Source: Chrysemys picta bellii
Lineage: Eukaryota
Direction: 5' to 3'
Length of the DNA: 64,000 nucleotides
Assembly (NCBI RefSeq): GCF_011386835.1
Contig: NC_088809.1
Span: 1,116,001-1,180,000 of the forward strand
Shown here piece after piece: positions 48,582-63,700 of this stretch (the stretch's first letter is position 1; every line of letters begins with the position of its first letter). The notes below the pieces were generated by a model. The model saw nothing but the letters and a program-made list of their open reading frames with translations. It searched no databases and was not told the DNA's origin. The position numbers were made by a program, and so were the translations under genes.

Positions 48582-50111
48582 AGTCAGCCCGGCCCGGCCC
48601 AGCCCAGCGCCCCAGGCCAGCCACGTGCCCCAGCGAGCCCAGCCCACCGCCGTCTCTCTCCACCCCCAGGGACGGGGCTGTTTTGGGCTCCCTAGCTTGG
48701 GGCTGCTTTAGCCAGGTCCCATGCCCTGGGCTGCGCCCCTTGCCCACTGCTGTCTCCCAGCCCTTCCTCCAGCGGGGTGGGAGGCCAGGCCCTGCCCGTG
48801 CTCTCGGGGGATGACAAAGGGGGGCCCAGGAGCTGGCCCAGTTGCTGAGGAAGGGAGGGCCCAGGCACTGAGCAGCAGCGCCTCCCGTCCCCCGAGCCTC
48901 GGGGTAACTAACCGGGGCTCCGCCTTCCCCGCTGAGACCTGGGGCAGGTTGCAGGTTCCAGGTTTGGAGTTTAAAAGGCTAAGCTGTGACCCAGCCGGGA
49001 GGGAGTCTCACAGCAATATGTGACCCCAGGCAGAGCAGCTTTGGTTGTGGGGCCACATGCTGAATGCTGAGGACGAACCCAAACCCTGATTGTGAGCCTC
49101 CCTTTGCTCTGGGACGTCCCTTTGGGTCGGTTCCTCACCGGTTTCTTGCTGGCACCCGCCAGGTCCCATCTAATTCCTTGCTGGGTGCTGGCAGGGCTGG
49201 CCCCAGTTCCCCACACCGGATATTCCCCTGTCGCCTTTCCCTATGGGCCACCCGTCAGCGTCTGCCCAGGGCCATGCTCCAGGCCTGCCCCCTCCGCACT
49301 CGCATTCCAGGCTTCTCTGTGGGAAATCCTACCCAATCTGGCAGCACACAGGGCAGGGTGTCCTGGGGAAGTGGCTGTCAACCTCCCAGCCTGGCAAATG
49401 GCCAGCGGCGCCAGCACATCCTCTATTCATGCCTGGAGGCTGAGAGGCTGTGCGCAGCTGCCCGCAGGCTCCTCTGTGGCGTGATGGTGTCAGCAGTGGG
49501 TTGTCTGTCCTGAACGGCGTAGGCCCGTCTGCACCTGCACGGTTCAGCATGGAACTGCCTTGGCCTTACAAGGTGTTGCGGATTGTGGGGGAGTTAGGGC
49601 CCTGCACCCCCGTCTTCCTGCGATTCACCATGACTCTCAGCCAGCCAGTAAAGCAGAAGGTTTATTTGGATGACAGGAATACAGTCCAAGACAGGTCTTG
49701 CAGGCACAGACAACAGGGCCCCCCTCAGTTAGGTCCAGCTTGGGGTCCCAGGGCATGCCAGCCCACCCCCCTTGGGGGGTCAGAGCCATCTCTGCCTCCC
49801 AGCCATCTCTCCAGCCTCCTTCCAGCCTGCTTCCAGCACTCTCTCTCCAGCGACCCCTCCCACAGCCTTTGTTCAGTTTCCCGGGCCCCGGAGTCATCTG
49901 ACCTCCAACCCCCTCCTGGGTTCTCATGTTACAAGCTCAGGTATGTTCCCTTGGGCCGGCTCCCATCCCCCGATGCAGACCATCCTAGTCACACTCCCCT
50001 GTCAGCATTCACACACCACAGTAAGAACAGTCCCAGTTCGTCACATCTCTCCCCCCTTCGAGACCGAACTGAGCGGGGTCACTTTAGCCAGTGACCTGGG
50101 GAAGTTCGAAC

Positions 50112-52871
50112 CTACCCCCGTTCCCATGGATGCCCCCGCATCCCTCCAGTTCCTTGGTGGGAGTTACACCAGGCCCCTTCCGTTCCACGCCCCCCCTTAG
50201 GTCGGGGGTGCTTGATGGCACTCGCAGTTCGCATGTGGGAAGGTTTATGCGGCCTGTGCCCTTTTCCCACCCCCATACCTCTGGGGTTCCAACTGGGCTG
50301 TGGTCTTCTCCCAGCGCTCCAGTCTGGAGGTCTGTGCTTTGGGCTCTCTTGGTTTAGAGCCGCCCTTTTAACCTTGGCCACCCTCTGGAAAGGATCCTTT
50401 ATGCTGGGCAAGGGTCCTAAAGCTGTTTTCCCCTTGTCCCAGGCCTTCCTCCCCCTCTGACAGGGGTCACAGGATCCGCAGTACTGTCGGACAGTAACAA
50501 AGACCCCAGGCCAGTAAAAGCTCCGTAGCAGCCTCTGCTGGGTACGCCAGGTTCCCTGGTGCCCTGAGAGGGGAATGTCATGGGCCCGGCACAGCAGCTG
50601 GCGGCGATACTTCTGGGGTACCACCAGCTGCCTCCTGATCCCCCCTGACTCCATTTTCCCTGGGGGAGCCCATTCTCGGTACAGGAACCCCTTCTCCCAC
50701 AGGAACCTTTTCCGGCCACCTCGTTCCAGGGTCTGTACCGCATTGAGGTCGGCCAGGTCCCTTATCTTCCGCAAGGAGGGGTCTCTCTGTAACTCGGCCT
50801 GGAACTCAGCAGCTGGGACAGGGATGGCCACCTGCTCTTTCTCGCCCGCTGGGTCCGAAGCTGCAGCCTCCCTGAGCCGCGTCCCTGGGCGTTCCCTCCC
50901 CACCAGGTTAGGGTCCTGCGCCTCAGGCAAGGCACCCCCCCCAAGGCCAGGGCGCAGGGCCCCTCGCCGGCTCTGACTGCGGGTCACAACCAGTGCCTTT
51001 TGGGGGTTGCTTGGCCAGTTCTCCAGGTCCCCCCCCATCAATATCTCAGTGGGCAAATACGGGTGTACCCCCACATCCTTGGGGCCCTCCTTGGCCCCCC
51101 ACTTCAGGTGTACCCTTGCCACGGGCACTTTGACTGGTGTTCCGCCCACCCCCGTCAGGGTCAGGTAGGAGTTGGGCACCACCTGATCTGGGGCCACCAC
51201 CTCGGGCCGGGCCAGCGTCACCTCTGCGCCCGTATCCCAGTATCCATTGACCTTCCTCCCATCCACCTCCAGGGGAACGAGGTACTCTCTCCGGAGGGAC
51301 AGCCCCGCGCCCACCGTATAAACCAAAAACCCTGAGTCTGGGGCATCCAGCCCCCTAGAGGAGCTGGCCTGGGGCCCTTCTCTCTCTTGAGCAGTTGATA
51401 AGCTGCCAGCCCCTCTTGCGTGAGAAGCCTGCCCCTCGTCCGTCTGGGCCTCTACCAAGTTAACCCTATGCGGGTTCGGTCTGCTCAGTCTGTCCTTGAG
51501 CTTGGGGCACTGGGCCCGAACGTGGCCTCTTCGGCCGCAGTAATAGCAGCTCATGTCCTGTGGGTCCCCTCGAGCCGGTCGGTTGTCCCTGATGCTGGGC
51601 ATTTCCCGGGGGAGGGGATTCCCAATATTCCCCCTTTGGGAGGTCCCAGGGTGACTCTCTCTCTGCATCGCGGCGGGCCTGTTCCTTTGGGGCTCCTCCC
51701 TGCCAGCCCCTGACCGGCTCTTTACAAACTCATCAGCCAGCTGCCCGGCGTGTCGCGGGTTCTCTGGCTTTCTGTCCACCAACCACAGCCTCAGGTCGGA
51801 TGGGCACCGCTCATACAGTTGCTCCAGTACCAGCAGTTTAATCAGGTCCTCCTTCGTCTGGGCCCCACCAGCCCACTTGCTGGCGTATCTTTCCATGCGG
51901 ACGGCTAGTTGCAGATATGAGATCTCAGGGGCTTTATCTTGACTCCGGAACCTTTCCCGGTACATCTCAGGAGTCAGCCCAAACTCACGTAGCAGGGCCT
52001 TTTTGAATAGTTCGTAGTCCCCTTTCTCTGCCTCTCCCAGTTGGCGGTACAATGCCACGGATTTGGGGTCCAGTAAGGGGGTAAGGACCCGGAGTCTGCC
52101 CGCGGGATCAACCCGGTGCAGCTCGCAGGCCGTCTCAAAGGCCTCCAGGAAGTCGTCCATGTCCTCCCCCTCCTTGTATGGGGCCATGATGCACTTATCA
52201 AAGCTCCGTGCAGTCCTGGGTCCCCCCTCACTCACCGCAGCCGGGGGTTCGCTGCCCCTCAGTCTCGCCAGTTCCAGTTCATACTGTCTTTGTCTCTCAT
52301 TCTCCTCCCGTTCACGCTGATGCTGTCTCTCTTTCTCCTCCCGTTCACGCTGATGCTGTCTCTCTTTCTCCTCCCGTTCACGCTGATGCTGTCTCTCTTT
52401 CTCCTCCCGTTCATGCTGTCTCTGTCGTTCACGATCCTCCAGCTCTCTCAGTTTTAGCTCTTTCTCCCATTCCAGCCAATTCCGCTCCACGGATGCCGAA
52501 CGTCGCCGGGAGGATCCTCTGCTGGCCGGCGGGCTTCGCCGGGGGGATCCCCTGCTGGCCGGGGGGGCCACGGCGCCCTCGGTATTTGCTGGGCTCCTCC
52601 CCACCCTTCCCCTAGGCATAGGAAGGAGGGGTCTCGGGCAGCCCTCAGCAGCCGGCTGACCACTCCCAGCTGGGACAGACACTGGTGCCTGCGCTGCATT
52701 TGCCAGGCTGCTTCCCTGAGACACAGGGATCAGTTCATTCGCGCGATCTTCCGCCTCCAGCTGGGCGATGAGCTGTTCTTTGGTGAGCCTCCCAATGCGC
52801 AGCCGCCTCTGCTTGCACAGCTCCACCAGGTCGCTCTTAAGCCGCTTGGCATACATCTTCCTGCTGGCCAC
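50112..52871 (-). CDS. 919-aa Gag (HeH-like N-terminus, coiled coil, capsid/SCAN, CCHC knuckle) + aspartic protease + integrase HHCC finger only
   Basis: SCAN-like PEMYRERFR...KWAGG...LLVLEQLYERCPSDLRLWLVDRKPENPRHAGQLADEF. Knuckle CYYCGRRGHVRAQC (51548-51507). Protease WDTGA (51236-51228). Integrase finger HDIPLSGH-x-CGSCDPC. Homology stops at PFQRVA; no DDE core, no YxDD. Confidence 0.93.
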   Translation of the reverse strand: MASRKMYAKRLKSDLVELCKQRRLRIGRLTKEQLIAQLEAEDRANELIPVSQGSSLANAAQAPVSVPAGSGQPAAEGCPRPLLPMPRGRVGRSPANTEGAVAPPASRGSPRRSPPASRGSSRRRSASVERNWLEWEKELKLRELEDRERQRQHEREEKERQHQREREEKERQHQREREEKERQHQREREENERQRQYELELARLRGSEPPAAVSEGGPRTARSFDKCIMAPYKEGEDMDDFLEAFETACELHRVDPAGRLRVLTPLLDPKSVALYRQLGEAEKGDYELFKKALLREFGLTPEMYRERFRSQDKAPEISYLQLAVRMERYASKWAGGAQTKEDLIKLLVLEQLYERCPSDLRLWLVDRKPENPRHAGQLADEFVKSRSGAGREEPQRNRPAAMQRESHPGTSQRGNIGNPLPREMPSIRDNRPARGDPQDMSCYYCGRRGHVRAQCPKLKDRLSRPNPHRVNLVEAQTDEGQASHARGAGSLSTAQEREGPQASSSRGLDAPDSGFLVYTVGAGLSLRREYLVPLEVDGRKVNGYWDTGAEVTLARPEVVAPDQVVPNSYLTLTGVGGTPVKVPVARVHLKWGAKEGPKDVGVHPYLPTEILMGGDLENWPSNPQKALVVTRSQSRRGALRPGLGGGALPEAQDPNLVGRERPGTRLREAAASDPAGEKEQVAIPVPAAEFQAELQRDPSLRKIRDLADLNAVQTLERGGRKRFLWEKGFLYREWAPPGKMESGGIRRQLVVPQKYRRQLLCRAHDIPLSGHQGTWRTQQRLLRSFYWPGVFVTVRQYCGSCDPCQRGRKAWDKGKTALGPLPSIKDPFQRVAKVKRAALNQESPKHRPPDWSAGRRPQPSWNPRGMGVGKGHRPHKPSHMRTASAIKHPRPKGGRGTEGAWCNSHQGTGGMRGHPWERG
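52290..52425 (-). repeat. 33-bp coding tandem repeat (about 4 units) in Gag
   Basis: Encodes (ERQHQREREEK)n, a charged coiled coil. Units start at 52301, 52334, 52367 and 52400 on the + strand. Confidence 0.9.
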
Positions 52872-54744
52872 TCACCGGCCTGTGTGCTCACAGCTCCCCA
52901 CAGTTCCCAGGGGGACCCCTAGTGTGCCAGCCCTTCTCGAGGTCACCACCTCTCTGCCAGGGTCGAGCTGCAGACTCCTCCGCCCCTGGGACCACTCGCT
53001 GCGATCCCCCCGGGGGACCCTGTTACTGCAAAAGTCCTTCTCGCTGGTCACACACTCCCAGGGGTAATAACCGTCTCTCTCCCACTCTTCAGCAGGCCTG
53101 GTCCCCGTCAATCCCCCTTCGTTTTACTGCTCCCCAGTCACTTACTGCAGGAAGCGCCGTCCACGGGGTGCAGTAGATCCCGCCGCTGCCACCAGTTGTT
53201 GCGGATTGTGGGGGAGTTAGGGCCCTGCACCCCCGTCTTCCTGCGATTCACCATGACTCTCAGCCAGCCAGTAAAGCAGAAGGTTTATTTGGATGACAGG
53301 AATACAGTCCAAGACAGGTCTTGCAGGCACAGACAACAGGGCCCCCCTCAGTTAGGTCCAGCTTGGGGTCCCAGGGCATGCCAGCCCACCCCCCTTGGGG
53401 GGTCAGAGCCATCTCTGCCTCCCAGCCATCTCTCCAGCCTCCTTCCAGCCTGCTTCCAGCACTCTCTCTCCAGCGACCCCTCCCACAGCCTTTGTTCAGT
53501 TTCCCGGGCCCCGGAGTCATCTGACCTCCAACCCCCTCCTGGGTTCTCATGTTACAAGCTCAGGTATGTTCCCTTGGGCCGGCTCCCATCCCCCGATGCA
53601 GACCATCCTAGTCACACTCCCCTGTCAGCATTCACACACCACAGTAAGAACAGTCCCAGTTCGTCACACAAGGGGCCACGTGACCTGCAGCTGCTGGACT
53701 GTTTGGGGAATTGAGTTCCCAGGGGGATAACTAGCAAGTGCTCCTCTTGCCAGGCTGCCAGATGGAGGGAGCAGGCCCCTCTGTGCCATCCATGGCTAGC
53801 ACCAGAGTGTGACACTGGAGTAGCCTCCCCCAGGGCCCTGTGAATTGGGACTGAACGAAACACCAGCACTAACTGTCGCCCCTGGGGGGAGGAGGGGCGC
53901 GGATAATTGTGCTGGTCTCCGTTTGCAGGGCCGGTTGGCTCGTGCTGCCCGGGTCACACGCGTGGTGGAAGTGTAGCCCGGGGACGGCCAGCTCCTTCTG
54001 TGCCCTGGTCAGTTCCTGGCTCAGGGACAGAGGGGGCTGGAAGGTGGATTCAGTGTGAATGAACCAAGCAGGCAGAGGAGCAGGGGGGGAAGGGGTCAAT
54101 GGGGCCAAGGCTCCCGGTGGAAGTGCAGGGGGGGCGCGGGGTTTCAGGCCTCTTCCTCTCATCTGTGGGGGGAGGATACTGGCCTCTCTGCGGCAGACAG
54201 GACGCAGCGCTGCCCATGTGCCGTGTGCAGGGCCCCTCATGGCACGGAGGGTCCAGCGAGTCGTGGCCCTTCCTGGTGCCCCTGCTGCTCGCCTGGCGGC
54301 TGCCCTGTGCCAGGTCCCAGCGTTGCGTTTCCTCCAGGCCTGGTCACCCGCTCAGCGAGGTTCCCGCAGTCACTGCTCCAACTGCAGCCACTCGCCTCTC
54401 CCCGCTGAGCGGGGCTCGGAGCTGGCTGGGGTCATTCCCCTCTTCTCACCTCTGAAAGGGGCTGGCTTTGGCCAGCTTCCAGCGGCAGGTGGACCCAAAC
54501 TCTGCCCCCTTCTCGCTCTGGCCCCTCCTCGGGGAGCCCCCCTGCAGCTGGCCACTTTCCGAGCCAGGGGAGAAGTCTGGGGGAGGGGCTAGCTCCCGAA
54601 GCTGGAGCAGGTGAATATTTAACCGGGGAGCTGGCGCTTGTTTTGCTTGGGCAGCTCTAGGCTGGTCGGGGGTGGTTCTGGCTGGAGAAGGGGGCGGTTG
54701 GGCAGCCGAAGAGCTGCCGATTTCACCCTGCAGAGAGCTGTGGG

Positions 54745-57700
54745 ATGGAGCCGGAGCTGGAGCAGGGGCAGGAGGCCAAGGCGCGACATCTATCTGCGCA
54801 GTAAGCCCGAGAGTCGCAGGAGCTAGTGGGGAGGCCATGCCATCTCTCTGGGGCCACCGAGGGACTAAGGGTGGCTTGGGCACCCAGTCCCGGCAGGGGG
54901 AAAGGACCACAGGTCCCTTCAGCCTAGGGGGGCCCTGGAGTCTCCCATCCCTTCACACCAGGTGCAGGGTTCCGTTCCCTCTGGCGGTGGAAGGGTTAAC
55001 TGCATACCTGAGCAGCTGGTCTGGCACATCAGGGCTCAGCTTGGGAAGCGCCAATGCGGCTGCATGGCCCGGTGAGACAGGCCCCGGCCGGCTCCCCCAG
55101 GGGCGGCTCTCGGGGCCGCCAGAGTCCCTGCTCCCCACACGGCTTGTTTTCCAGGAGCCCAGCAGGCGACCGGGAGGATCCCACGGACAGGAAGGAAACA
55201 CGTCTCCGGGTGGTGCTCAGGTGAGGGGGCAGGGACGGGCGGCTGATGGGTGCCAGGTTTCGGGCCGGGCACCTGGGAGCAGGAGGGTGCCCGCATGGTG
55301 ACTGATGCCTTTCCCTTTGGCTAGGGTTCGGCCCCTGACCTGCCCGGAGCGCCGCGGAGGGGACCAGCGTGTGGTGCACTGCCTCGGGGACAACACCGTC
55401 TACGTGAGTGCCCCACGCTGGAGAGGCCACAGCTGGGCGCCGGCCTGAGTGGGCCTGATCCTGAGCCAGCTCTTTTCTCCCCGTGCCAGGTGAAGGCGGC
55501 CGGGCAGGAGGCGGCCTTCAGGTTAAGTGCAGTGTTCGATGCAGGCGCGTCCCAGGAAGGGGTGTTTGAAGGCAGCGGGATGAAGCGACTCATAGAACTG
55601 GCAGCGAATGGGTGAGGCTGAGGCAACCCTGAGTGGAGAGTGTGTGCTCCCCCTCCCCCATCCCCTCCCCCTCCCCCCACTCCCATCCGTAACTCCCAGC
55701 CAGCCACGCACGCGCTCCCCCTCCATCTGCCCCCCATAGCCCCCCGCCAGCCACGCACGCGCTCCCCTCCCCCTGCCCCCCATAGCCCCCAGCCAGCCAC
55801 GCACGCGCTCCCCCTCCACCTGCCCCCCATAGCGCCCAGCCAGCCACGCACGCGCTCCCCCTCCACCTGCCCCCCATAGCCCCCAGCCAGCCACGCACGC
55901 GCTCCCCCTCCACCTGCCCCCCATAGCCTCCCGCCAGCCACGCACGCGCTCCCCCTCCACCTGCCCCCCATAGCCCCCAGCCAGCCATGCACGCGCTCCC
56001 CCTCCACCTGCCCCCCATAGCCCCCAGCCAGCCATGCACGCGCTCCCCCTCCACCTGCCTCCCCCCATAGCCCCCCGCCAGCCATGCACGTGCTCCCCCT
56101 GCCTGCTCCCCCCCACTGTGGCCTCCTTCCCAGCAGCCATCTGCAGCTTTCTACCTACACACGCCTCTACAGACTCACCCCCAGGCACAAGCATCCAGCA
56201 GCACCCACCCACTCCCTCCCCAGCAACATCCTCCTCACACCAGCGCGTGCCCGCAGCCGTGCGCCCCTTCACCTCCGCGCTCTCAGGCACCATCTTATGC
56301 CAGTGCGGAACCGCTGGGTCACGGGCCACCAGCCGTTCCTACCACAGGGCACGTCTGCATTACCTGGCTCCGCCACGAGAGGGCGCTTTGCACCCGCCAA
56401 GGAAGGGGGCAGGTGCTCAGCGGCTCTTCTGCCCCCTCCCCAGGTTCTCCTGCACCGCCTTTGCCTTTGGACAAACAGGCTCTGGAAAGACCTACACGTT
56501 AATGGGCCCCTTAGCCCAGGTGAGAGACCCTCCTGGGGGCAACCTACACCGTGTGAGCCGATACCCCAACCAGCGCCTTACTGCGCCTCCCGGATCACGA
56601 GCCCCGGCCTCCCCCAGCAGGGGGCGCTGTGGGGAGCAGGGCAGGGTGCTAGCTGTGGGGGGAGCTCACAGTTACCCCAGCCCCGGCCTCTCCCAGCAGG
56701 GGGCGCTGTGGGGAGCGGGGCGCTGGCTGTGGGGGGAGCTCACAGTTACCCCAGCCCCGGCCTCCCCCAGCAGGGGGCGCTGTGGGGAGCGGGGCGCTGG
56801 CTGTGGGGGGAGCTCACAGTTACCCCAGCCCCGGCCTCTCCCAGCAGGGGGCGCTGTGGGGAGCGGGGCAGGGCGCTGGCTGTGCAGGGGAGTTCCCAGT
56901 TGCCCCAGCCTCTCCCAGCAGGGGGCGCTGTGGGGGGCAGGGCAGGGTGCTAGCTGTGGGGGGGAGCTCCCAGTTACCCCAGCCCCAGCCTCTCCCAGCA
57001 GGGGGCGCTGTGGGGAGCAGGGCAGGGTGCTAGCTGTGGGGGGAGCTCACAGTTACCCCAGCCCCGGCCTCTCCCAGCAGGGGGCGCTGTGGGGAGCAGG
57101 GCAGGGTGCTAGCTGTGGGGGGGAGCTCCCAGTTACCCCAGCCCCAGCCTCTCCCAGCAGGGGGCGCTGTGGGGAGCGGGGCACTGGCTGTGGGGGGGAG
57201 CTCCCAGTTACCCCAGCCCCGGCCTCCCCCAGCAGGGGGCGCTGTGGGGAGCGGGGCAGGGCGATGGCTGTGCAGGGGAGTTCCCAGTTACCCCAGCCCC
57301 AGCCTCTCCCAGCAGGGGGCGCTGTGGGGGGCAGGGCAGGGTGCTAGCTGTGGGGGGGAGCTCCCAGTTACCCCAGCCCCGGCCTCTCCCAGCAGGGGGC
57401 GCTGTGGGGAGCAGGGCAGGGTGCTAGCTGTGGGGGGGAGCTCCCAGTTACCTCAGGCCCGGCCTCTCCCAGCAGGGGGCGCTGTGGGGGGCAGGGTGCT
57501 GGCTGGGGCTGGTTCTCAGTTTCCTGCTGCAGGGGGTGGAAGCTCAGGGCACCCTGCCATTGGCTTTCCGAGACTTCTCCTCTCTCTGCAGAGCGAGGGC
57601 CAGCCGGCGACTCCCTACCTCGGGGGGCTGATGCAAAGGGCCTTTGTGTGTCTCCTGGAGCAGACGCAGCACTACAGACCCGGCCTCGTGCTCAGTGCCT

Positions 57701-60700
57701 CGTACGTGGAGATACACAATGAGCAGGTAGGGCCACCCCCACCACCACCACCCTGCCTGGACAAAGAGCTGCAGCACCTCATGCCCCCAGCCCATGCCCA
57801 GGGCTGGCTGATGGGCACCAGACATTACCCTGCCCTGCCCCCCATTACCTCTCTGCTACAGCCCTTCCCGCTCACCCGCGTCCTTCTGGCTTCCTGGGCT
57901 CCATTCCCACCTGCCCCGGTGCCTCCCCTCTGTCCAGGTGAGAGACCTGCTGAACCCAGGATCGCCCAGGCCCCTGCCCGTGCGATGGAGCAAAACCAGG
58001 GGCTTCTACATCGAGAACCTGCTCACTGTGGAGTTTGGGAGCCTGGAGGCCATCATGGACCTGCTGCAGGAAGGTACCGCACAGGGTGTCTCCAGCCTTG
58101 CAGGGCACTGGGGAGGGGCACAGGCAGGACCCCCGGTGAGTGGAGACCCCAGGGCTCTGCAGCCCATGGGCAATGAGCCCAGTGCAGAAGGGGCCCCCTG
58201 GTGGCCAGATGGGGAGTGAATTCCCTTTTGCTGAGCCTAGTGGTGGGGAGCTGCTCCTCCCACGAGCCTTCCGCCTGCACCAGGGCATCACTCTGGCCTA
58301 GGTCACCAGCTGTTTTCCAAGGCAGGACTGGCGGCCTGGGGGCACAGGCAGCAGCCAGATGGGAACAGCCTGTGCTGGCCTAGACCCAGCCACTGAGGGA
58401 AGAGGCTCCATCTCCGTTCCTGGAGCTGCAGAGGCCCCCTGCCCCGTAACGAGCTCAGGACCCTGGGAGCGCAGGTTCTGCAGGAGGGTGAAGCCCAGCG
58501 CCAGGGGGTCAGGGGCTGTTTAACCTTTTTGCCTGGCTCTGAACTGTCTGCGCCTCCCGCTCCCAGGCACCCGAAGGCGGCGGAGCGCCGCGCATGCACT
58601 GAATGGGCACTCGAGTCGCAGCCACGCCCTGCTGACCATCCGCATCTGCCGCAAGGCTGTGAGTCACTCGTGTCCCAGCACGCGGGGCCTCGGGGGCCAT
58701 GGCATAGCCCATCCTGCTCCCAGGGGCCCAGCTGCATTGGCAGCTTGGGGGAGGGTCCGAGGGGCACTGGCCTGAATGGCTTTGATTTGCTACTGCCCTG
58801 CTCACCCTCCAGGGGCTGCTCTGGGCTGACGCCCGTCTGAGCCAGCCTGGTGCTTCTCCCTTCGCTGGGCTCGCTAGGGCCTGCACTGGAGACCCCAGCT
58901 GTGCAGGGCAGGCTGCCTGGCTGGGAGTGTTCCTGAAGGCCCATGGAGCAGGACACCTGTGAGCTACGGTCCCTCCCCTTCCCCACAGATGAGCCCAGAC
59001 CCCAGCTCCTGCCAGAAAGGCGTGCTCTGCTTCGTGGACCTGGCTGGCAGCGAGAGGGTGAAGGACACCGGCTCGGCTGGTGAGCGCTTAGTGGAGGCCA
59101 GCAACATCAACCGCAGTCTCCTGGCTCTGGGTAAGGCCCCTGCAGCCGCGCCAGAGAGAGGGGCCAGGCTTGCATGCTCCCCCAGCTGGCTGCAGGCTCG
59201 GCTGGGCCTTGCGGCTTTTCTGTGTGCTCATCGCCTGGAGCAGCGCCACCTGAGCGCCAAGGCAAGTGTGACAGCCTGTCCTCCCCGCAGGGCACTGCAT
59301 CTCTCTGCTGGTGGACCCCAGACGGAGGCGGAGTCACATCCCATACAGGGACAGCAAGCTCACCCGGCTGCTGGCGGAGTCCCTGGGCGGATCCGGGATC
59401 ACGCTCATGGTAGGAGCCTGGCTCCCCTCTGCACCCGGGGAAGGGCTGGGTGCGGGCCTGGAGCTGCAGCCCCACAGGTGCAGCACTGGGACGGGAGCCG
59501 GGGAAGTGACCTGTCAAAATCACATTGCAAGGCTGGAGTCCGGGATTCCAGTGCCTGAGCCGGCTAGCCTGGGGCCGTGGGGAGAGACTCGCCAGAGCCC
59601 TCTCTGATGACGGCCCCACTGGGAGCTGCTCCTCAGCCTTGTCCCTTGTCCAGCAGGTCGCCTGCATCTCCCCCTCCTCGCGCTGCCTCCCGGAGACACT
59701 GCGCACGCTGCGCTTCGCCAGCAGGGCCAAGAAGGTCACCACCAAGCCTGTGGCACACAGGGTAAGGCCAGAGGGCTTTGAACACAAGGACGGTCACATG
59801 GGGTCAGACCTGGAACCCAGTGTCCTGTCTCTGACAGCGGCCAGTGCCAGGTGCTTCGGAGGGAACGAACAGACCGGGGCAATTCTAGTGATCCAGCCCC
59901 TGGCATCCAGTCCCAGCTCCTGGCAGTTGGCGGTTTAGGGACACCCACAGCATGGGGTTGTGTCCCTGCCCAGCCTGCCTAACAGCTGTCGACGAGCCTA
60001 GCCTCCAGGAACTCATCTTCTCTTTTTTGAACCCAGATATACTCTCTGCCTTCACAACATCCGAACATCTGAGTTCGCTGCATCCCAGGGCAGGGCCCCT
60101 TGTGGCCAGGGCCGTCTCCCTGAGCTGTGCGGCCCCCTCCCCTCTAAGCCTTGTGCCTTTGATTTGCCAGGTGTCCCAGGAGAAGCTGCTGCGAAGTTTG
60201 GAGCAAGAAATCCAGGCCCTGCGGGAGGAAAACCTCTCCCTGCGCCAGCAGCTGCGGCTGCCCAGGATACTGGGCGCGGGCACAGCCGCCCACACAGCCC
60301 CCACACGTGCGTGCAGCTGGGGACGGGGCAGAGCTGGGGGTTAGAGGGATCCAGGGCCGCCCTAGGGGACAGGAGTGGGGAGCCTGCAGAGGGGCACCGT
60401 GGGCTTGTGCATCAGAGAAGTGTGGGACCTGCCACCCCCAGGCCCTGGCCCGAGTGCAGGTGCAGCGGCTGGGCTCCGGTTGTCACCCATCTCGTTTTCC
60501 TTGCAGAGCTGCCCGAGTGCCAGGGAGAGAGCCATGCCCCTGGGCAGAGAGGGGCCCCGAGGAGAGCACCCGGCTCGGCCAGGCGCAGCCTCTGTGGCCT
60601 CCTGCAGGAGTTTGTGCTGGAGAACGAGCAGCACAGGTAGCAATAGGACGTTCCCCCTCCTGGGCTGACCCCTGGGAGACTCAACTCCTGGCGGGGGGGG

Positions 60701-63700
60701 GGGCCGACCCTGCACCTCCCTAGAGCCCGGATGTGTGGGCAAGCCCCGGGCATGGCCTGGTACCTAGGACAGAGGTCACTGGCAAAGCAATGCCCCCTAC
60801 ACACGAGGTGGGCAGGGCTGCACCGTGTGTTCCCCAGCCACCTCAAACCAGCTGCTACCCGCGGCAGCGTGACTCTCCCAGGCAGCGAGGCCCACCCTGG
60901 CTGGGCTCAGGGAAGGGGCACCCCAGCCCCACTCCCCCAGGCAAATGCCGCTCCTCCGACCAGGTCCCAAGCCCAGGGGCTCACCCTCAAGCCAGGCAGC
61001 TGGGCTCTCCAGCAGCTCCACAATACCCACCCAGGCTCTGCCTGCCTCCCCCCGCCTCTCGCCACAGAGAGTCCCTGCCATGCCTGGCTCTCTGCAACTC
61101 AAGAACCACCGCCAACCCTTCCCCAGCAGCCTGCAGGCCGCCCCAGCTCAGTCACCCGACCGGGGAGGGGGGCGCAGCTTAGCTGGGCCTGGACCCCCGA
61201 AAGGTCAGCACTGCTGGGCTGGGTGACTGAGCCAGATCTCGCTCCTCCTGGCCCCTCACGCCCAGCGAGGGGGTGCCCCAGCGCACTACCCAGAGGGCGT
61301 GGTGAGCAGGGCAGCGCTGGGCTCCGTCCATGCGCTGAGTCCGGCCTGGCACGGGGCAGGCACCCGGCAGGGGGGCTCTGCTAGAGTCTAGATGGATGGC
61401 TGGGGTGGGGCCCGGCGTCCACAGCTCACCGCGCTCTCCCCTCCCTATTGTCCTACTTGGCCAAGGAGGGAACCGATCCCGCTGACGAGCAGCCAATCCC
61501 CTGCCAGGGAAGGGCAACGTGCACTGGTGCAGGAGCTGACGAGATAAAGGGGCAGGGGGAGGGGCAATGCAGGCAGTGCCTGAGACCCCCGTGGGTGGGT
61601 GACAGCTGCTCTGCAGGGTGAGGGAACCCCTCAATAGCCAGGCCCTGAGCTGTGTGCGCGATGGGGAGGCATTTCCGAGTCACCTGAAGAACTAGGGGGG
61701 GAGGGTCTGGACTCTCAGTGCTGGCGTTGGGGGGCCGGCCCCGTGAGGGGCACTCGGCACGTACGGGGGGCGCTGGGCATGCAGGGGACGCGGGGTGCAC
61801 GCTGGGTGCACGGGGGGGGCACTCAGCATGCGGGGGGATGCTCGATGCATGCTGGGTATGTGGGGGGGCGCTGGGCGTGCGGGAGGCGCTGGGTGGGGGG
61901 GGCACTGGGTGTGTGTGTGGGGGTGCTGGGCGTGTGGGGGGCGCTGTGTGTGTGTGTGGGGGTGCTGGGCGTGTGGGGGGCGCGGGGTGTGTGTGCGGGG
62001 AGTGCTGGGCGTGCGGGAGGCGCTGGGTGTGGGGGGCACTGGGTGTGTGTGTGGGGGTGCTGGGCGTGCAGGAGGTGCTGGGTGTGGGGGGGCACTGGGT
62101 GTGTGTGGGGGGGTGCTGGGCGTGCGGGGGCACTGGGTGTGTGGGGGGAGTGCTGGGCGTGCAGGGGGACACTAGGCATGCACTGGGTGTGTGGCGTGAG
62201 GGAGGGTCTCTCTGCTGGACATGGCAGAGCCCAGGCCCGTCCTTCAGGCCAGTCTTGGGTTACTTGTGGGCCACGGTCCCTGGGGCTGGGGCAGACGCAG
62301 GCGCAGGCCCAGACCTGGCAGAACAGTCAAGCTCAGGGAGCCCCTCAGACGGGTGTTGCAGGAATTCCTGCTCTGGGCAGCGTCTCAGCCAACCGCAGGC
62401 CCCCTCCAGCCCCTGGAGCTGCTGGCTGGGTGACTTACCTGCCTGTCATTGTGGTGACCTCCCCTGCCCGAGTCCCACCTTGCCAGGTCTCCCCCCCCAA
62501 GCTGTGGGGCTGCTGGCTCTTGCCTCGCCGGGCACCGTGGCTGGGATGGCATGTTGGGATGCCTGGGGCTGCCCCACTCCCACTCATCTCGTTTATGTTC
62601 CAGGCACCTAGAGTCCCTCCCAGCCCTCAGCAGCTGGGGCCAGGCCCGACGTTCCCCCGAAGCTGCCCCCAGCTCCTGCAGCATCCAGGCCCTGCCCTGC
62701 GCCCACCCTGCCCCCAGCGCAGCCCAGTGTGGCCACGTGAGTCTCCTCTTCCTGTCTGACTTGGCGCCCGAGGCCCTGGCCCCTGACGTGTCCTGCCGGC
62801 CGTGACGCCCCAGGGGAGCTGCCGCCCCAGCGTCTGGGCTGGTTCGAATCTGGCTGAAAGCCGCTCCTTTGGGGCCCAGCTCAGCACAAAAGGCAGAGAA
62901 CGGATGGGCCATGGAGCCTGGACGCCCGTCTCCCTTCCAGCGGGACACCTGCTCCAGCTTCCGCCCTGGCCCTGGCGCCCCCAGCCATGCACGGAGCTAA
63001 GCCCCAGCACACACGGCTGGACGCCTGCGCCACGTCCCCTCCCGTGCTCTCTTCCTCTTGCAGATACTGCCTCCTGTCCATGCCTGCCGCTGCCCTGCCA
63101 GCGCTCCCAGGCATGGGCCATCCCCTGCAAGGCTGGCTGGGAACAGGAAGTGGAAGCTTTCAGCCTAAGGGCTCTACTTGTCCTTCCAGCTGCCGCCATG
63201 GGAGGTGCTCACTGCCCAGAGTGGTTCCAGGTTCCAGGGGGCCAGCCAGGGCAGCCCATGGGAGGACCCGGCTCAGCCCTGGCCCCAGAGCCAGCAGCGC
63301 CCTGTGGCTCCCTGGTTACTCCATGGGAAAAGGTGAGAGTCACCAGCCTGGGGCCAGGAGTGAGTCTGGCCGTGGGGCTGTGCAGGCAGGAGCACAGGCC
63401 CCCAGGACAGGGCTCAGGGCACATCAGAAGGTGACCCAGGGATGGGGGGCAGGCAGTGGGGTGGGGCAGCCATGGCCAGATTTGATGTGGGCCCCAGGCT
63501 CACTGCACATGCAGCCTCTGGCAGGTTAGTGGCCTCCTGTGCTCCTCTGGGCCACCAGCCCTGGCCCCAGTACTCAGCCCAGCCCTTGCTTGCGCTGCAG
63601 GAGCCTGGGCCGAAGGAAGAGCTCCGTTGGCTCGTGTCTGCTCCTGAGAGACACCCAGCAGCAGGGCCCTGAGCCTCCCCCCGGCCTGGAGGGGCAGGTC

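What the first reader, a model, noticed from the sequence alone, without database searches (positions are those of the whole stretch)
56614..57484. Minisatellite built from 12 co-oriented canonical CTCF cores: a candidate copy-number-variable insulator
Seen: every 74-80-bp unit contains an invariant CCAGCAGGGGGCGCTG while the spacer sequence varies. Known: this matches the core CTCF consensus, and tandem CTCF arrays (DXZ4, Firre, strong TAD borders) act as robust loop anchors. A reverse-oriented CTCF-like site, TGTCGCCCCCTGGGGG, lies at 53874-53889, giving the divergent layout typical of boundaries. Inference: a repeat-expanded insulator between the SEBOX/LTR domain and downstream genes. If this repeat is dispersed across turtle microchromosomes, it could be an unrecognised lineage-specific system for seeding chromatin architecture.
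Basis: partly seen in the sequence, partly recalled or inferred. Interest (0 to 1): 0.72.

Follow-up and report, generated by a model that had tools for sequence, protein, structure and literature searches.

The report
Dispersed minisatellite family carrying CTCF sites
A short DNA repeat inside an intron of a motor-protein gene is one of many scattered copies of a repeat family whose unit carries the docking word of the genome-folding protein CTCF; the word is better preserved than the rest of the unit, so some copies likely bind the protein, but nothing marks this copy as a gene boundary.

Summary
The array is real: 11.7 units of 74-80 bp with 12 exact cores. Its 14 central letters equal a published high-occupancy CTCF site. 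The local story fails: the array lies inside an intron of a spliced kinesin gene, and the 'reverse' site was misquoted and scores 0.2 bits.

The genome-wide guess largely holds. The unit is a dispersed family without shared flanks. It sits mostly on small contigs and chromosome ends, gives about 738 of 8,243 strict CTCF words, and is present at this intron in four other-labelled organisms. In copies found without using the core, the core is the best-kept 16 bp, and its CpG decays half as often as other CpGs (14% vs 29% within arrays). Two further families (384 and 659 exact words) share only that core with it.

Against selection: the binding-damaging CpG change is as common as the harmless one (132 vs 112), arrays with broken cores also expand, and two other common dispersed families lack the motif.

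Best reading: a minisatellite family carrying CTCF sites as passengers, likely partly bound in the germ line. Insulation is untested. The scan noted single CTCF minisatellites before, in sharks.

The parts
56600..57505 (+). Minisatellite array, 11.7 units of 74-80 bp, GC 74%, member of a dispersed 79-bp family ('family A')
56611..57484 (+). Twelve co-oriented CTCF-type 19-mers (first 56611-56629, last 57466-57484), 19.5-19.8 bits; the core CpG is intact in 12 of 12 while three spacer CpG sites vary
   Evidence: matrix recalled; identity with HighOc1 core
56445..56519 (+). Kinesin exon 5' of the array (P-loop, Pfam PF00225 positions 75-95)
   Evidence: E 5e-8
56520..57591 (+). Host intron (GT..AG) that holds the array
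   Evidence: sequence; exon frames; an RNA-guess contig leaves the genomic text at 57589
57592..57726 (+). Kinesin exon 3' of the array; no Pfam hit on its own, spliced to the next exon
   Evidence: GT..AG joint 57723>57935 in run X15
55156..60268 (+). Host kinesin-motor gene, coding exons traced (KIF12-like by my recall; name not tested)
   Evidence: 6 of 8 exon pieces hit PF00225; frames
53874..53889 (-).
   Evidence: 0.2 bits
56370..56388 (+). Single non-repeat CTCF-type site, 17.2 bits
58189..58207 (-). Single reverse CTCF-type site, 17.8 bits, in a later intron of the same gene (convergent with the array, only 0.7 kb away)

Best explanation
This array is one copy of a dispersed GC-rich minisatellite family whose 79-bp unit carries a strong CTCF word; it sits in a kinesin intron, and CTCF (or its germ-line paralogue BORIS) likely occupies some copies and shields the core, while the array here is likely a passenger and not a selected boundary. 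Shown: dispersal without shared flanks, arrays of 1-18 units, a better-kept core, and halved CpG loss at the core. Inferred: pieces of 1-3 units are copied to new GC-rich places by recombination or templated break repair (ends fall at every phase, with no transposon body), then grow in place by unequal exchange or slippage. Also inferred: a bound zinc-finger protein lowers methylation of the core CpG on both strands, which explains lower but symmetric decay. Any barrier effect on cohesin would be a by-product.
For: Dispersal: 152 matches from the 40 of 407 candidates scored, best non-self hit 86%; 438 exact 21-mers. Of 47 spacer-found loci, 20 lie on contigs under 35 Mb, 17 within 10 Mb of an end of a larger contig and 10 inside. 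No vehicle: among the flanks of 43 arrays only two short cross-locus similarities (38 and 87 bp) appear, besides one overlap inside a locus; starts and ends spread over all phases. Core retention in arrays found with a core-free query: non-CpG identity 0.945 vs 0.901, higher in 37 of 43, best of 79 windows; gaps 0.6% vs 3.3%. In a second core-free set, 0.912 vs 0.724 at equal distance from the anchor, 19 vs 4 of 30 loci. CpG: intact 0.68 at the core vs 0.38 at a spacer CpG, 21 vs 5 of 47 loci (first 100 of 129 matches). Within arrays, 30 of 210 core vs 117 of 406 other CpG units decayed, 17 vs 5 of 24 paired arrays, P 0.004. Symmetric loss, TG 132 vs CA 112 of 870 cores, fits shielding better than selection. 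Precedents (passages read): CTCF/BORIS co-bind human VNTR-type repeats (PMC5007689); subtelomeric minisatellite spread in frogs (PMC10794172).
Against: No binding or methylation data were available. The array's CpG o/e is 0.24 against 0.38 for the window, and 28% of cores genome-wide have lost the CpG, so many copies are methylated in the germ line. In the second core-free set the core CpG (14 of 30 intact) is barely better kept than one spacer CpG (11 of 30; P 0.07). The query carried decayed spacer CpGs, so the CpG contrast in that set is biased and not relied on. Distinct non-CpG changes over the 19 motif columns are not fewer than expected (116 vs 119.6), and A/T positions show no significant contrast. 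A mild sign of selection exists (changes milder than expected, P 0.008) that a pure passenger model does not predict. The copying route is not shown: no empty site was found and target-site duplications are inconclusive.
Confidence: 0.55

Rival explanations
1. Never-bound neutral minisatellite: the CTCF word is a chance G-rich core, and its conservation comes from gene conversion seeded at the longest perfect stretch or from sequence context.
For: Low CpG o/e; symmetric TG/CA loss. Two other common dispersed families, 14 loci each in the fetched DNA, have no motif. Only 7 of 55 array rows at 3 places in 20 position-chosen 10-kb stretches carry one. Arrays with broken cores still reach 7.5-9.8 copies (L111, L144). 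Information content and conservation are not significantly correlated (rho 0.37, P 0.14).
Against: A spacer CpG in the same GCGCTG context decays more than the core CpG. Three families share only the CTCF word. Motif-bearing families exceed permuted-matrix controls: 6 of 94 vs 0.16-0.39, about 4 once related ones are merged.
Confidence: 0.2
2. Selected insulator or domain boundary at this locus: copy number tunes insulation between the homeobox/LTR region and downstream genes.
For: Twelve strong co-oriented sites. Both ends of the array are kept in other-labelled organisms (4 of 4 runs at the left end; both DNA-sized runs laid at the right end). Insulation rises with tandem sites in reporter work (PMC12885311, passages).
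Against: The array is intronic in a spliced gene and the partner site is false. The upstream motif tied to insulator activity is degraded in the window: 5 of 10 letters in 9 of 12 units. The binding-damaging CpG change is not purged. Retention at about 3% flank divergence is expected of neutral DNA. Turtle and chicken TADs are over 90% conserved at 500 kb (PMC11529993, passages).
Confidence: 0.08
3. Binding-driven spread: germ-line CTCF/BORIS occupancy makes the unit a break and duplication hotspot, so CTCF-bearing units found and enlarge minisatellite families faster than others.
For: Three abundant families share only the core. Larger arrays have more intact cores (0.60, 0.73, 0.88 by size class; rho 0.31, P 0.05). 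Shortened units keep the whole core in 11 of 13 loci. Array starts cluster just before the core (Rayleigh P 0.004). Human germ-line insertions duplicate CTCF motifs (PMC8559717, passages), and loop anchors are break-prone (PMC6066925, abstract).
Against: The size trend is confounded by age. Five of the 13 shortened-unit loci were found by the core. Motif-neutral CA is not favoured over TG. Motif-free families disperse as well. A break-and-convert process should erode, not keep, the motif (inference).
Confidence: 0.17

Closest known systems
DXPas34 minisatellite and DXZ4/Dxz4 macrosatellite (PMC3149622, PMC3491370; passages read)
   Same: Tandem units each with a CTCF site; conservation centred on the motif.
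   Different: Those are single X-linked loci with shown binding and function. This is a dispersed family of short arrays at many loci, CpG-depleted, with binding untested.
CTCF/BORIS co-bound human VNTR-type repeats and the SVA VNTR (PMC5007689; passages)
   Same: GC-rich tandem units forming clustered CTCF-type sites; binding is methylation-sensitive in vitro.
   Different: SVA is an L1-mobilised retroelement with a fixed body; here no shared flank, tail or terminal repeat was found.
SINE-carried CTCF expansions (B2, dog and opossum SINEs; PMC3368268; passages)
   Same: Lineage-level spread of one over-represented CTCF motif word by a repeat.
   Different: The vehicle here is a bare minisatellite confined to GC-rich regions, with several sites per insertion; there is no ChIP evidence.
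Subtelomeric minisatellite expansions of frogs (PMC10794172; passages)
   Same: Dispersed GC-rich tandem arrays in recombining chromosome ends.
   Different: The frog example derives from a SINE tail, and no CTCF link appears in the passages read. No parent element was found here.

Membership tests
Vertebrate CTCF binding site | Core motif match | tested here: met
   19.5-19.8 of 26 bits with a recalled matrix; 14 letters identical to the HighOc1 site printed in PMC10132984
Vertebrate CTCF binding site | Occupancy in chromatin; unmethylated core | not testable with these tools
   Only indirect: core CpG decay halved, array CpG o/e 0.24
Two-part (upstream + core) CTCF insulator site | Upstream 10-mer at the IL3 spacing | tested here: not met
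   The family word at that spacing matches 6-7 of 10 letters, but other offsets reach 6-7 too; TGCAG in about 1% of cores; window units 5 of 10
Domain boundary / insulator | Lies between domains with a divergent partner site | tested here: not met
   Intronic; claimed partner scores 0.2 bits
Domain boundary / insulator | Insulation in Hi-C or enhancer blocking | not testable with these tools
   No contact data
DXZ4/DXPas34-type CTCF tandem repeat | Tandem units each with a co-oriented motif | tested here: met
DXZ4/DXPas34-type CTCF tandem repeat | Motif better conserved than the rest of the unit | tested here: met
   37 of 43 arrays; 19 vs 4 of 30 loci; modest on substitutions alone, 0.956 vs 0.938
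DXZ4/DXPas34-type CTCF tandem repeat | Purifying selection on binding strength | tested here: inconclusive
   TG 132 vs CA 112, P 0.22; other changes milder than expected, P 0.008
VNTR (copy-number variable) | Length differs between individuals at this locus | not testable with these tools
   Contigs break inside the array
Transposon-borne CTCF repeat (SINE, SVA, MITE) | Shared element body, fixed ends or tail | tested here: not met
   No shared flanks in 43 arrays; ends at all phases; no Rfam match at gathering score
Transposon-borne CTCF repeat (SINE, SVA, MITE) | Target-site duplication | tested here: inconclusive
   Mean shared word 4.9 vs 4.2 +- 0.17; 11 of 43 at 6 or more letters vs null mean 5.7, maximum 12; several lie in the repeat itself

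The most novel reading that the evidence does not exclude
This lineage spreads CTCF sites through bare minisatellites rather than retrotransposons. Germ-line CTCF/BORIS binding itself promotes copying and growth of the units, so three unrelated repeat families have converged on the same core and load microchromosomes and chromosome ends with thousands of clustered, bound sites that shape their folding.
Probability: 0.15. Interest if true: 0.78.

Novelty: new variant of a known kind. Interest (0 to 1): 0.47.

Why it matters
Repeat-driven birth of CTCF sites is known from mammalian SINEs, and tandem CTCF arrays from a few X-linked loci. Here one minisatellite family supplies about 9% of the strict CTCF words of a reptile-sized genome, two more families add comparable numbers of exact words, and all gather in the GC-rich, gene-dense ends and small chromosomes. 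If bound, they offer hundreds of natural replicates to test whether clustered CTCF sites arise by mutational bias rather than selection (the neutral idea of PMC8559717), and whether CTCF density helps give microchromosomes their folding. If unbound, they warn that motif-count estimates of CTCF density on microchromosomes are inflated by repeats. This single locus is ordinary.

Tried and rejected
Reverse partner site at 53874: misread.

Boundary between genes: the array is intronic.

Transposon vehicle: no shared flanks; target-site duplications inconclusive.

Orientation bias to host genes: an early impression from single loci was not borne out. A crude exon caller gave 21 same, 24 opposite and 20 ties over 65 loci.

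Upstream (ZF9-11) motif: not met.

Strand asymmetry of core CpG loss, suggested by the first 100 matches, vanished genome-wide.

Common ancestry of families A, B and C outside the core: alignments no better than shuffles (43, 269 and 298 of 300 shuffles reach the score), although A and C look alike just 3' of the core and lie side by side at some loci.

Structured RNA: 10 Rfam hits, all far below gathering score.

Empty insertion site in other organisms: none seen at this locus. Copy number could not be read from contigs.

First clustering of repeat families chain-linked unrelated G-rich families and was redone.

Raw conservation numbers were inflated by over-extended alignments and replaced.

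Literature: no paper on these repeats turned up in searches (0 hits), 16, 26, 44, 58 and 72. The library lacks most subscription papers and repeat databases (Dfam, Repbase) could not be searched, so the families may already be catalogued. PMC13438756 and the BORIS preprint (passages) held nothing on turtle repeats.

Full report
OBSERVATION. The array spans 56600-57505, 11.7 units, 85% matches. The 16-mer occurs 12 times, all on the + strand, and nowhere else in the window with up to 2 mismatches; shuffles give 0.18. Units are 74-80 bp and all 11 full units differ. Still, 56 of 80 columns are invariant, and the core sits in the longest invariant run, 22 columns (chance 0.003-0.049). Three spacer CpG sites show TG/CA variants while the core CpG is intact in 12 of 12. 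With a CTCF matrix recalled from memory (no call) the sites score 19.5-19.8 of 26 bits. Fourteen consecutive letters are identical to the HighOc1 site used as a CTCF substrate in PMC10132984 (passages).

SETTING. The array is inside the intron 56520-57591 of a kinesin-motor gene: 6 of 8 exon pieces hit PF00225 in order, including the P-loop exon just 5' of the array. A contig of run X15 (RNA is the tool's guess) joins the next two exons across GT..AG and leaves the genomic text at the acceptor 3' of the array. A homeobox gene (about 47.3-47.6 kb, minus strand) and an LTR element with 99.6% identical 478-bp repeats (49568-53668) lie upstream. The array does not lie between them and the kinesin gene. 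The window is G000:C19:1116001-1180000, about 1.2 Mb from the end of a 26-Mb contig in a 2.37-Gb genome.

THE FAMILY. A two-unit query gave 152 matches from the 40 of 407 candidates scored; the best outside this locus is 86%. Exact counts are 438 for core plus five letters and 738 with a few degenerate letters. A recalled strict CTCF consensus has 8,243 matches, with 58 for the reversed control, so this word supplies about 9%. To avoid selecting for the core I collected copies with core-free queries: 42 arrays at 36 loci plus the window, and 37 arrays, 30 after dropping 7 that share flanks with another copy. Arrays hold 0.9-11.8 units in the first set (17.7 at L011), begin and end at every phase with a start bias just before the core, and share no flanks. 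Of the 47 loci, 37 lie on small contigs or near ends, and 10 in a few interior clusters. In 4 of 4 runs of other-labelled organisms one contig runs from the left flank through the first core, with 2-14 substitutions in about 500 bp. In the two DNA-sized runs laid on the right side, one contig runs from the last core outward. The insertion therefore predates those splits, and 357-497 contigs were laid per run, with depth piled on the repeat unit, which shows that the family is abundant there too.

IS THE CORE SPECIAL? For:
- Non-CpG identity is 0.945 vs 0.901, higher in 37 of 43 arrays, and the core is the best of 79 windows.
- G/C substitutions alone give 0.956 vs 0.938 (P 0.006) and gaps 0.6% vs 3.3%.
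- At equal distance from the anchor, identity is 0.912 vs 0.724.
- Within 35 arrays there are fewer variant kinds per column, 0.152 vs 0.222.
- The core CpG is intact at 0.68 vs 0.38 over 47 loci (first 100 of 129 matches), and decayed in 14% vs 29% of units within arrays.

Against:
- The query biased that set's spacer CpGs, and in the second set one spacer CpG is nearly as well kept (11 vs 14 of 30).
- Distinct changes over the 19 motif columns number 116 vs 119.6 expected, although they are milder than expected (-2.4 vs -3.1 bits, P 0.008).
- Genome-wide the core CpG reads CG 626, CA 112, TG 132. TG costs 3.4 bits and CA 0.5, yet TG is not rarer.
- Arrays with broken or weak cores reach 7.5-9.8 copies.

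Lower but symmetric CpG loss is what a bound protein shielding both strands from methylation would give, and not what selection on affinity would give (inference).

SISTER FAMILIES. Two more dispersed tandem families carry the same G-rich core: B (72-86 bp, 384 exact 20-mers) and C (72-95 bp, usually two sites per unit, 659 exact 20-mers for one of them). Outside the core they align to A no better than shuffles. Among 94 non-A clusters in the fetched DNA, 6 score 14 bits or more, against 0.16-0.39 for permuted matrices. One of the six is A-derived and core-selected and two are both family B, leaving about four, and most of the DNA was fetched beside family A. A hand estimate from about one lone site per 10 kb expects about 0.5. 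In 20 stretches chosen by position, 7 of 55 array rows at 3 places carry a site (one stretch coincided with a hit). The two commonest non-A dispersed families in the sample, 14 loci each, have no site. The CTCF word is therefore over-represented among these repeats, but it is not needed for dispersal.

MECHANISM. Shown: structure, intronic position, dispersal, core retention. Inferred: ectopic copying of 1-3 units by recombination or templated repair in GC-rich, recombining regions, then local growth, as proposed for frog subtelomeric minisatellites (PMC10794172, passages); and partial germ-line occupancy by CTCF or BORIS, which reptiles express in gonads and soma according to the BORIS preprint (10.1101/2025.02.12.637905, passages). 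Human data show germ-line insertions duplicating CTCF motifs and propose neutral origin of site clusters (PMC8559717, passages), which makes binding-driven spread a live rival. A selected boundary at this locus is the weakest reading. The upstream motif linked to insulator activity (PMC12885311, passages) is degraded in the window, and turtle and chicken TADs are largely conserved (PMC11529993, passages).

KNOWN KINDS AND NOVELTY. It works like DXPas34/DXZ4 in anatomy (PMC3149622, PMC3491370; passages) and like SINE-borne CTCF expansions in effect (PMC3368268, passages), but membership of either is unproven or failed (see table). PMC5007689 (passages) shows that CTCF/BORIS-bound VNTRs are a known kind; PMC6066925 was seen as abstract and outline only. 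Searches found no description of these families; repeat databases and paper supplements were not consulted. Earlier scan notes describe single CTCF minisatellites in sharks and none for this sequence.

VERDICT. A real feature with the wrong local story, and a sound genome-wide lead: new variant of a known kind, interest 0.47.

Noticed in passing
L163-L170, L009, L090 (e.g. G000:C12:2077400-2079700): Family B, a 72-86-bp dispersed minisatellite with one CTCF-type site per unit (about 17 bits); 384 exact 20-mers, dense at the start of C12 and C4.
   Followed up: partly
L151-L160 (e.g. G000:C1:5958800-5963500): Family C, a 72-95-bp dispersed minisatellite, usually with two co-oriented CTCF-type sites per unit about 35-55 bp apart (a BORIS/CTCF double-site layout, by recall); 659 exact 20-mers. 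Often lies beside family A in the same orientation (L054, L065, L010, L064).
   Followed up: partly
L099:7338-8485 (G000:C17, near 26.008 Mb): About 21 units made of a CA microsatellite plus a 19-bit CTCF-type site, found in a stretch chosen by position.
   Followed up: no
window 49568-53668: Young LTR element: 478-bp repeats 99.6% identical, 919-codon ORF on the minus strand at 52871-50115; its internal 33/54-bp repeat recurs at four other fetched loci.
   Followed up: no
window 55695-56115 and 61851-62168: Two more G/C-skewed minisatellites in the same kinesin gene (47 bp x 8.9; 55-56 bp x 5.7), with no CTCF site.
   Followed up: partly
G000:C2:147-149 Mb; C7:33-34 and 49-50 Mb; C4:24-25 and 60-63 Mb; C3:147.8 Mb: Interior clusters of these otherwise terminal repeats; possibly scars of old chromosome fusions or inversions.
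   Followed up: no
L103, L097, L095, L078 (75-bp unit); L083, L087, L074 (62/125-bp unit): Two abundant dispersed minisatellite families without a CTCF word, 14 loci each in the fetched DNA; useful as matched controls.
   Followed up: partly
window 56600-57505: The array holds G-quadruplex-type G-run patterns on both strands (8 and 5 regex hits), and each unit has a pyrimidine run plus CAG that resembles a splice acceptor on the sense strand of the host intron.
   Followed up: no
L064 and L065 (G000:C17:4.51 Mb and 3.62 Mb): The closest pair of family-A arrays (97% unit identity) lies 0.9 Mb apart on one contig, suggesting recent local copying.
   Followed up: no
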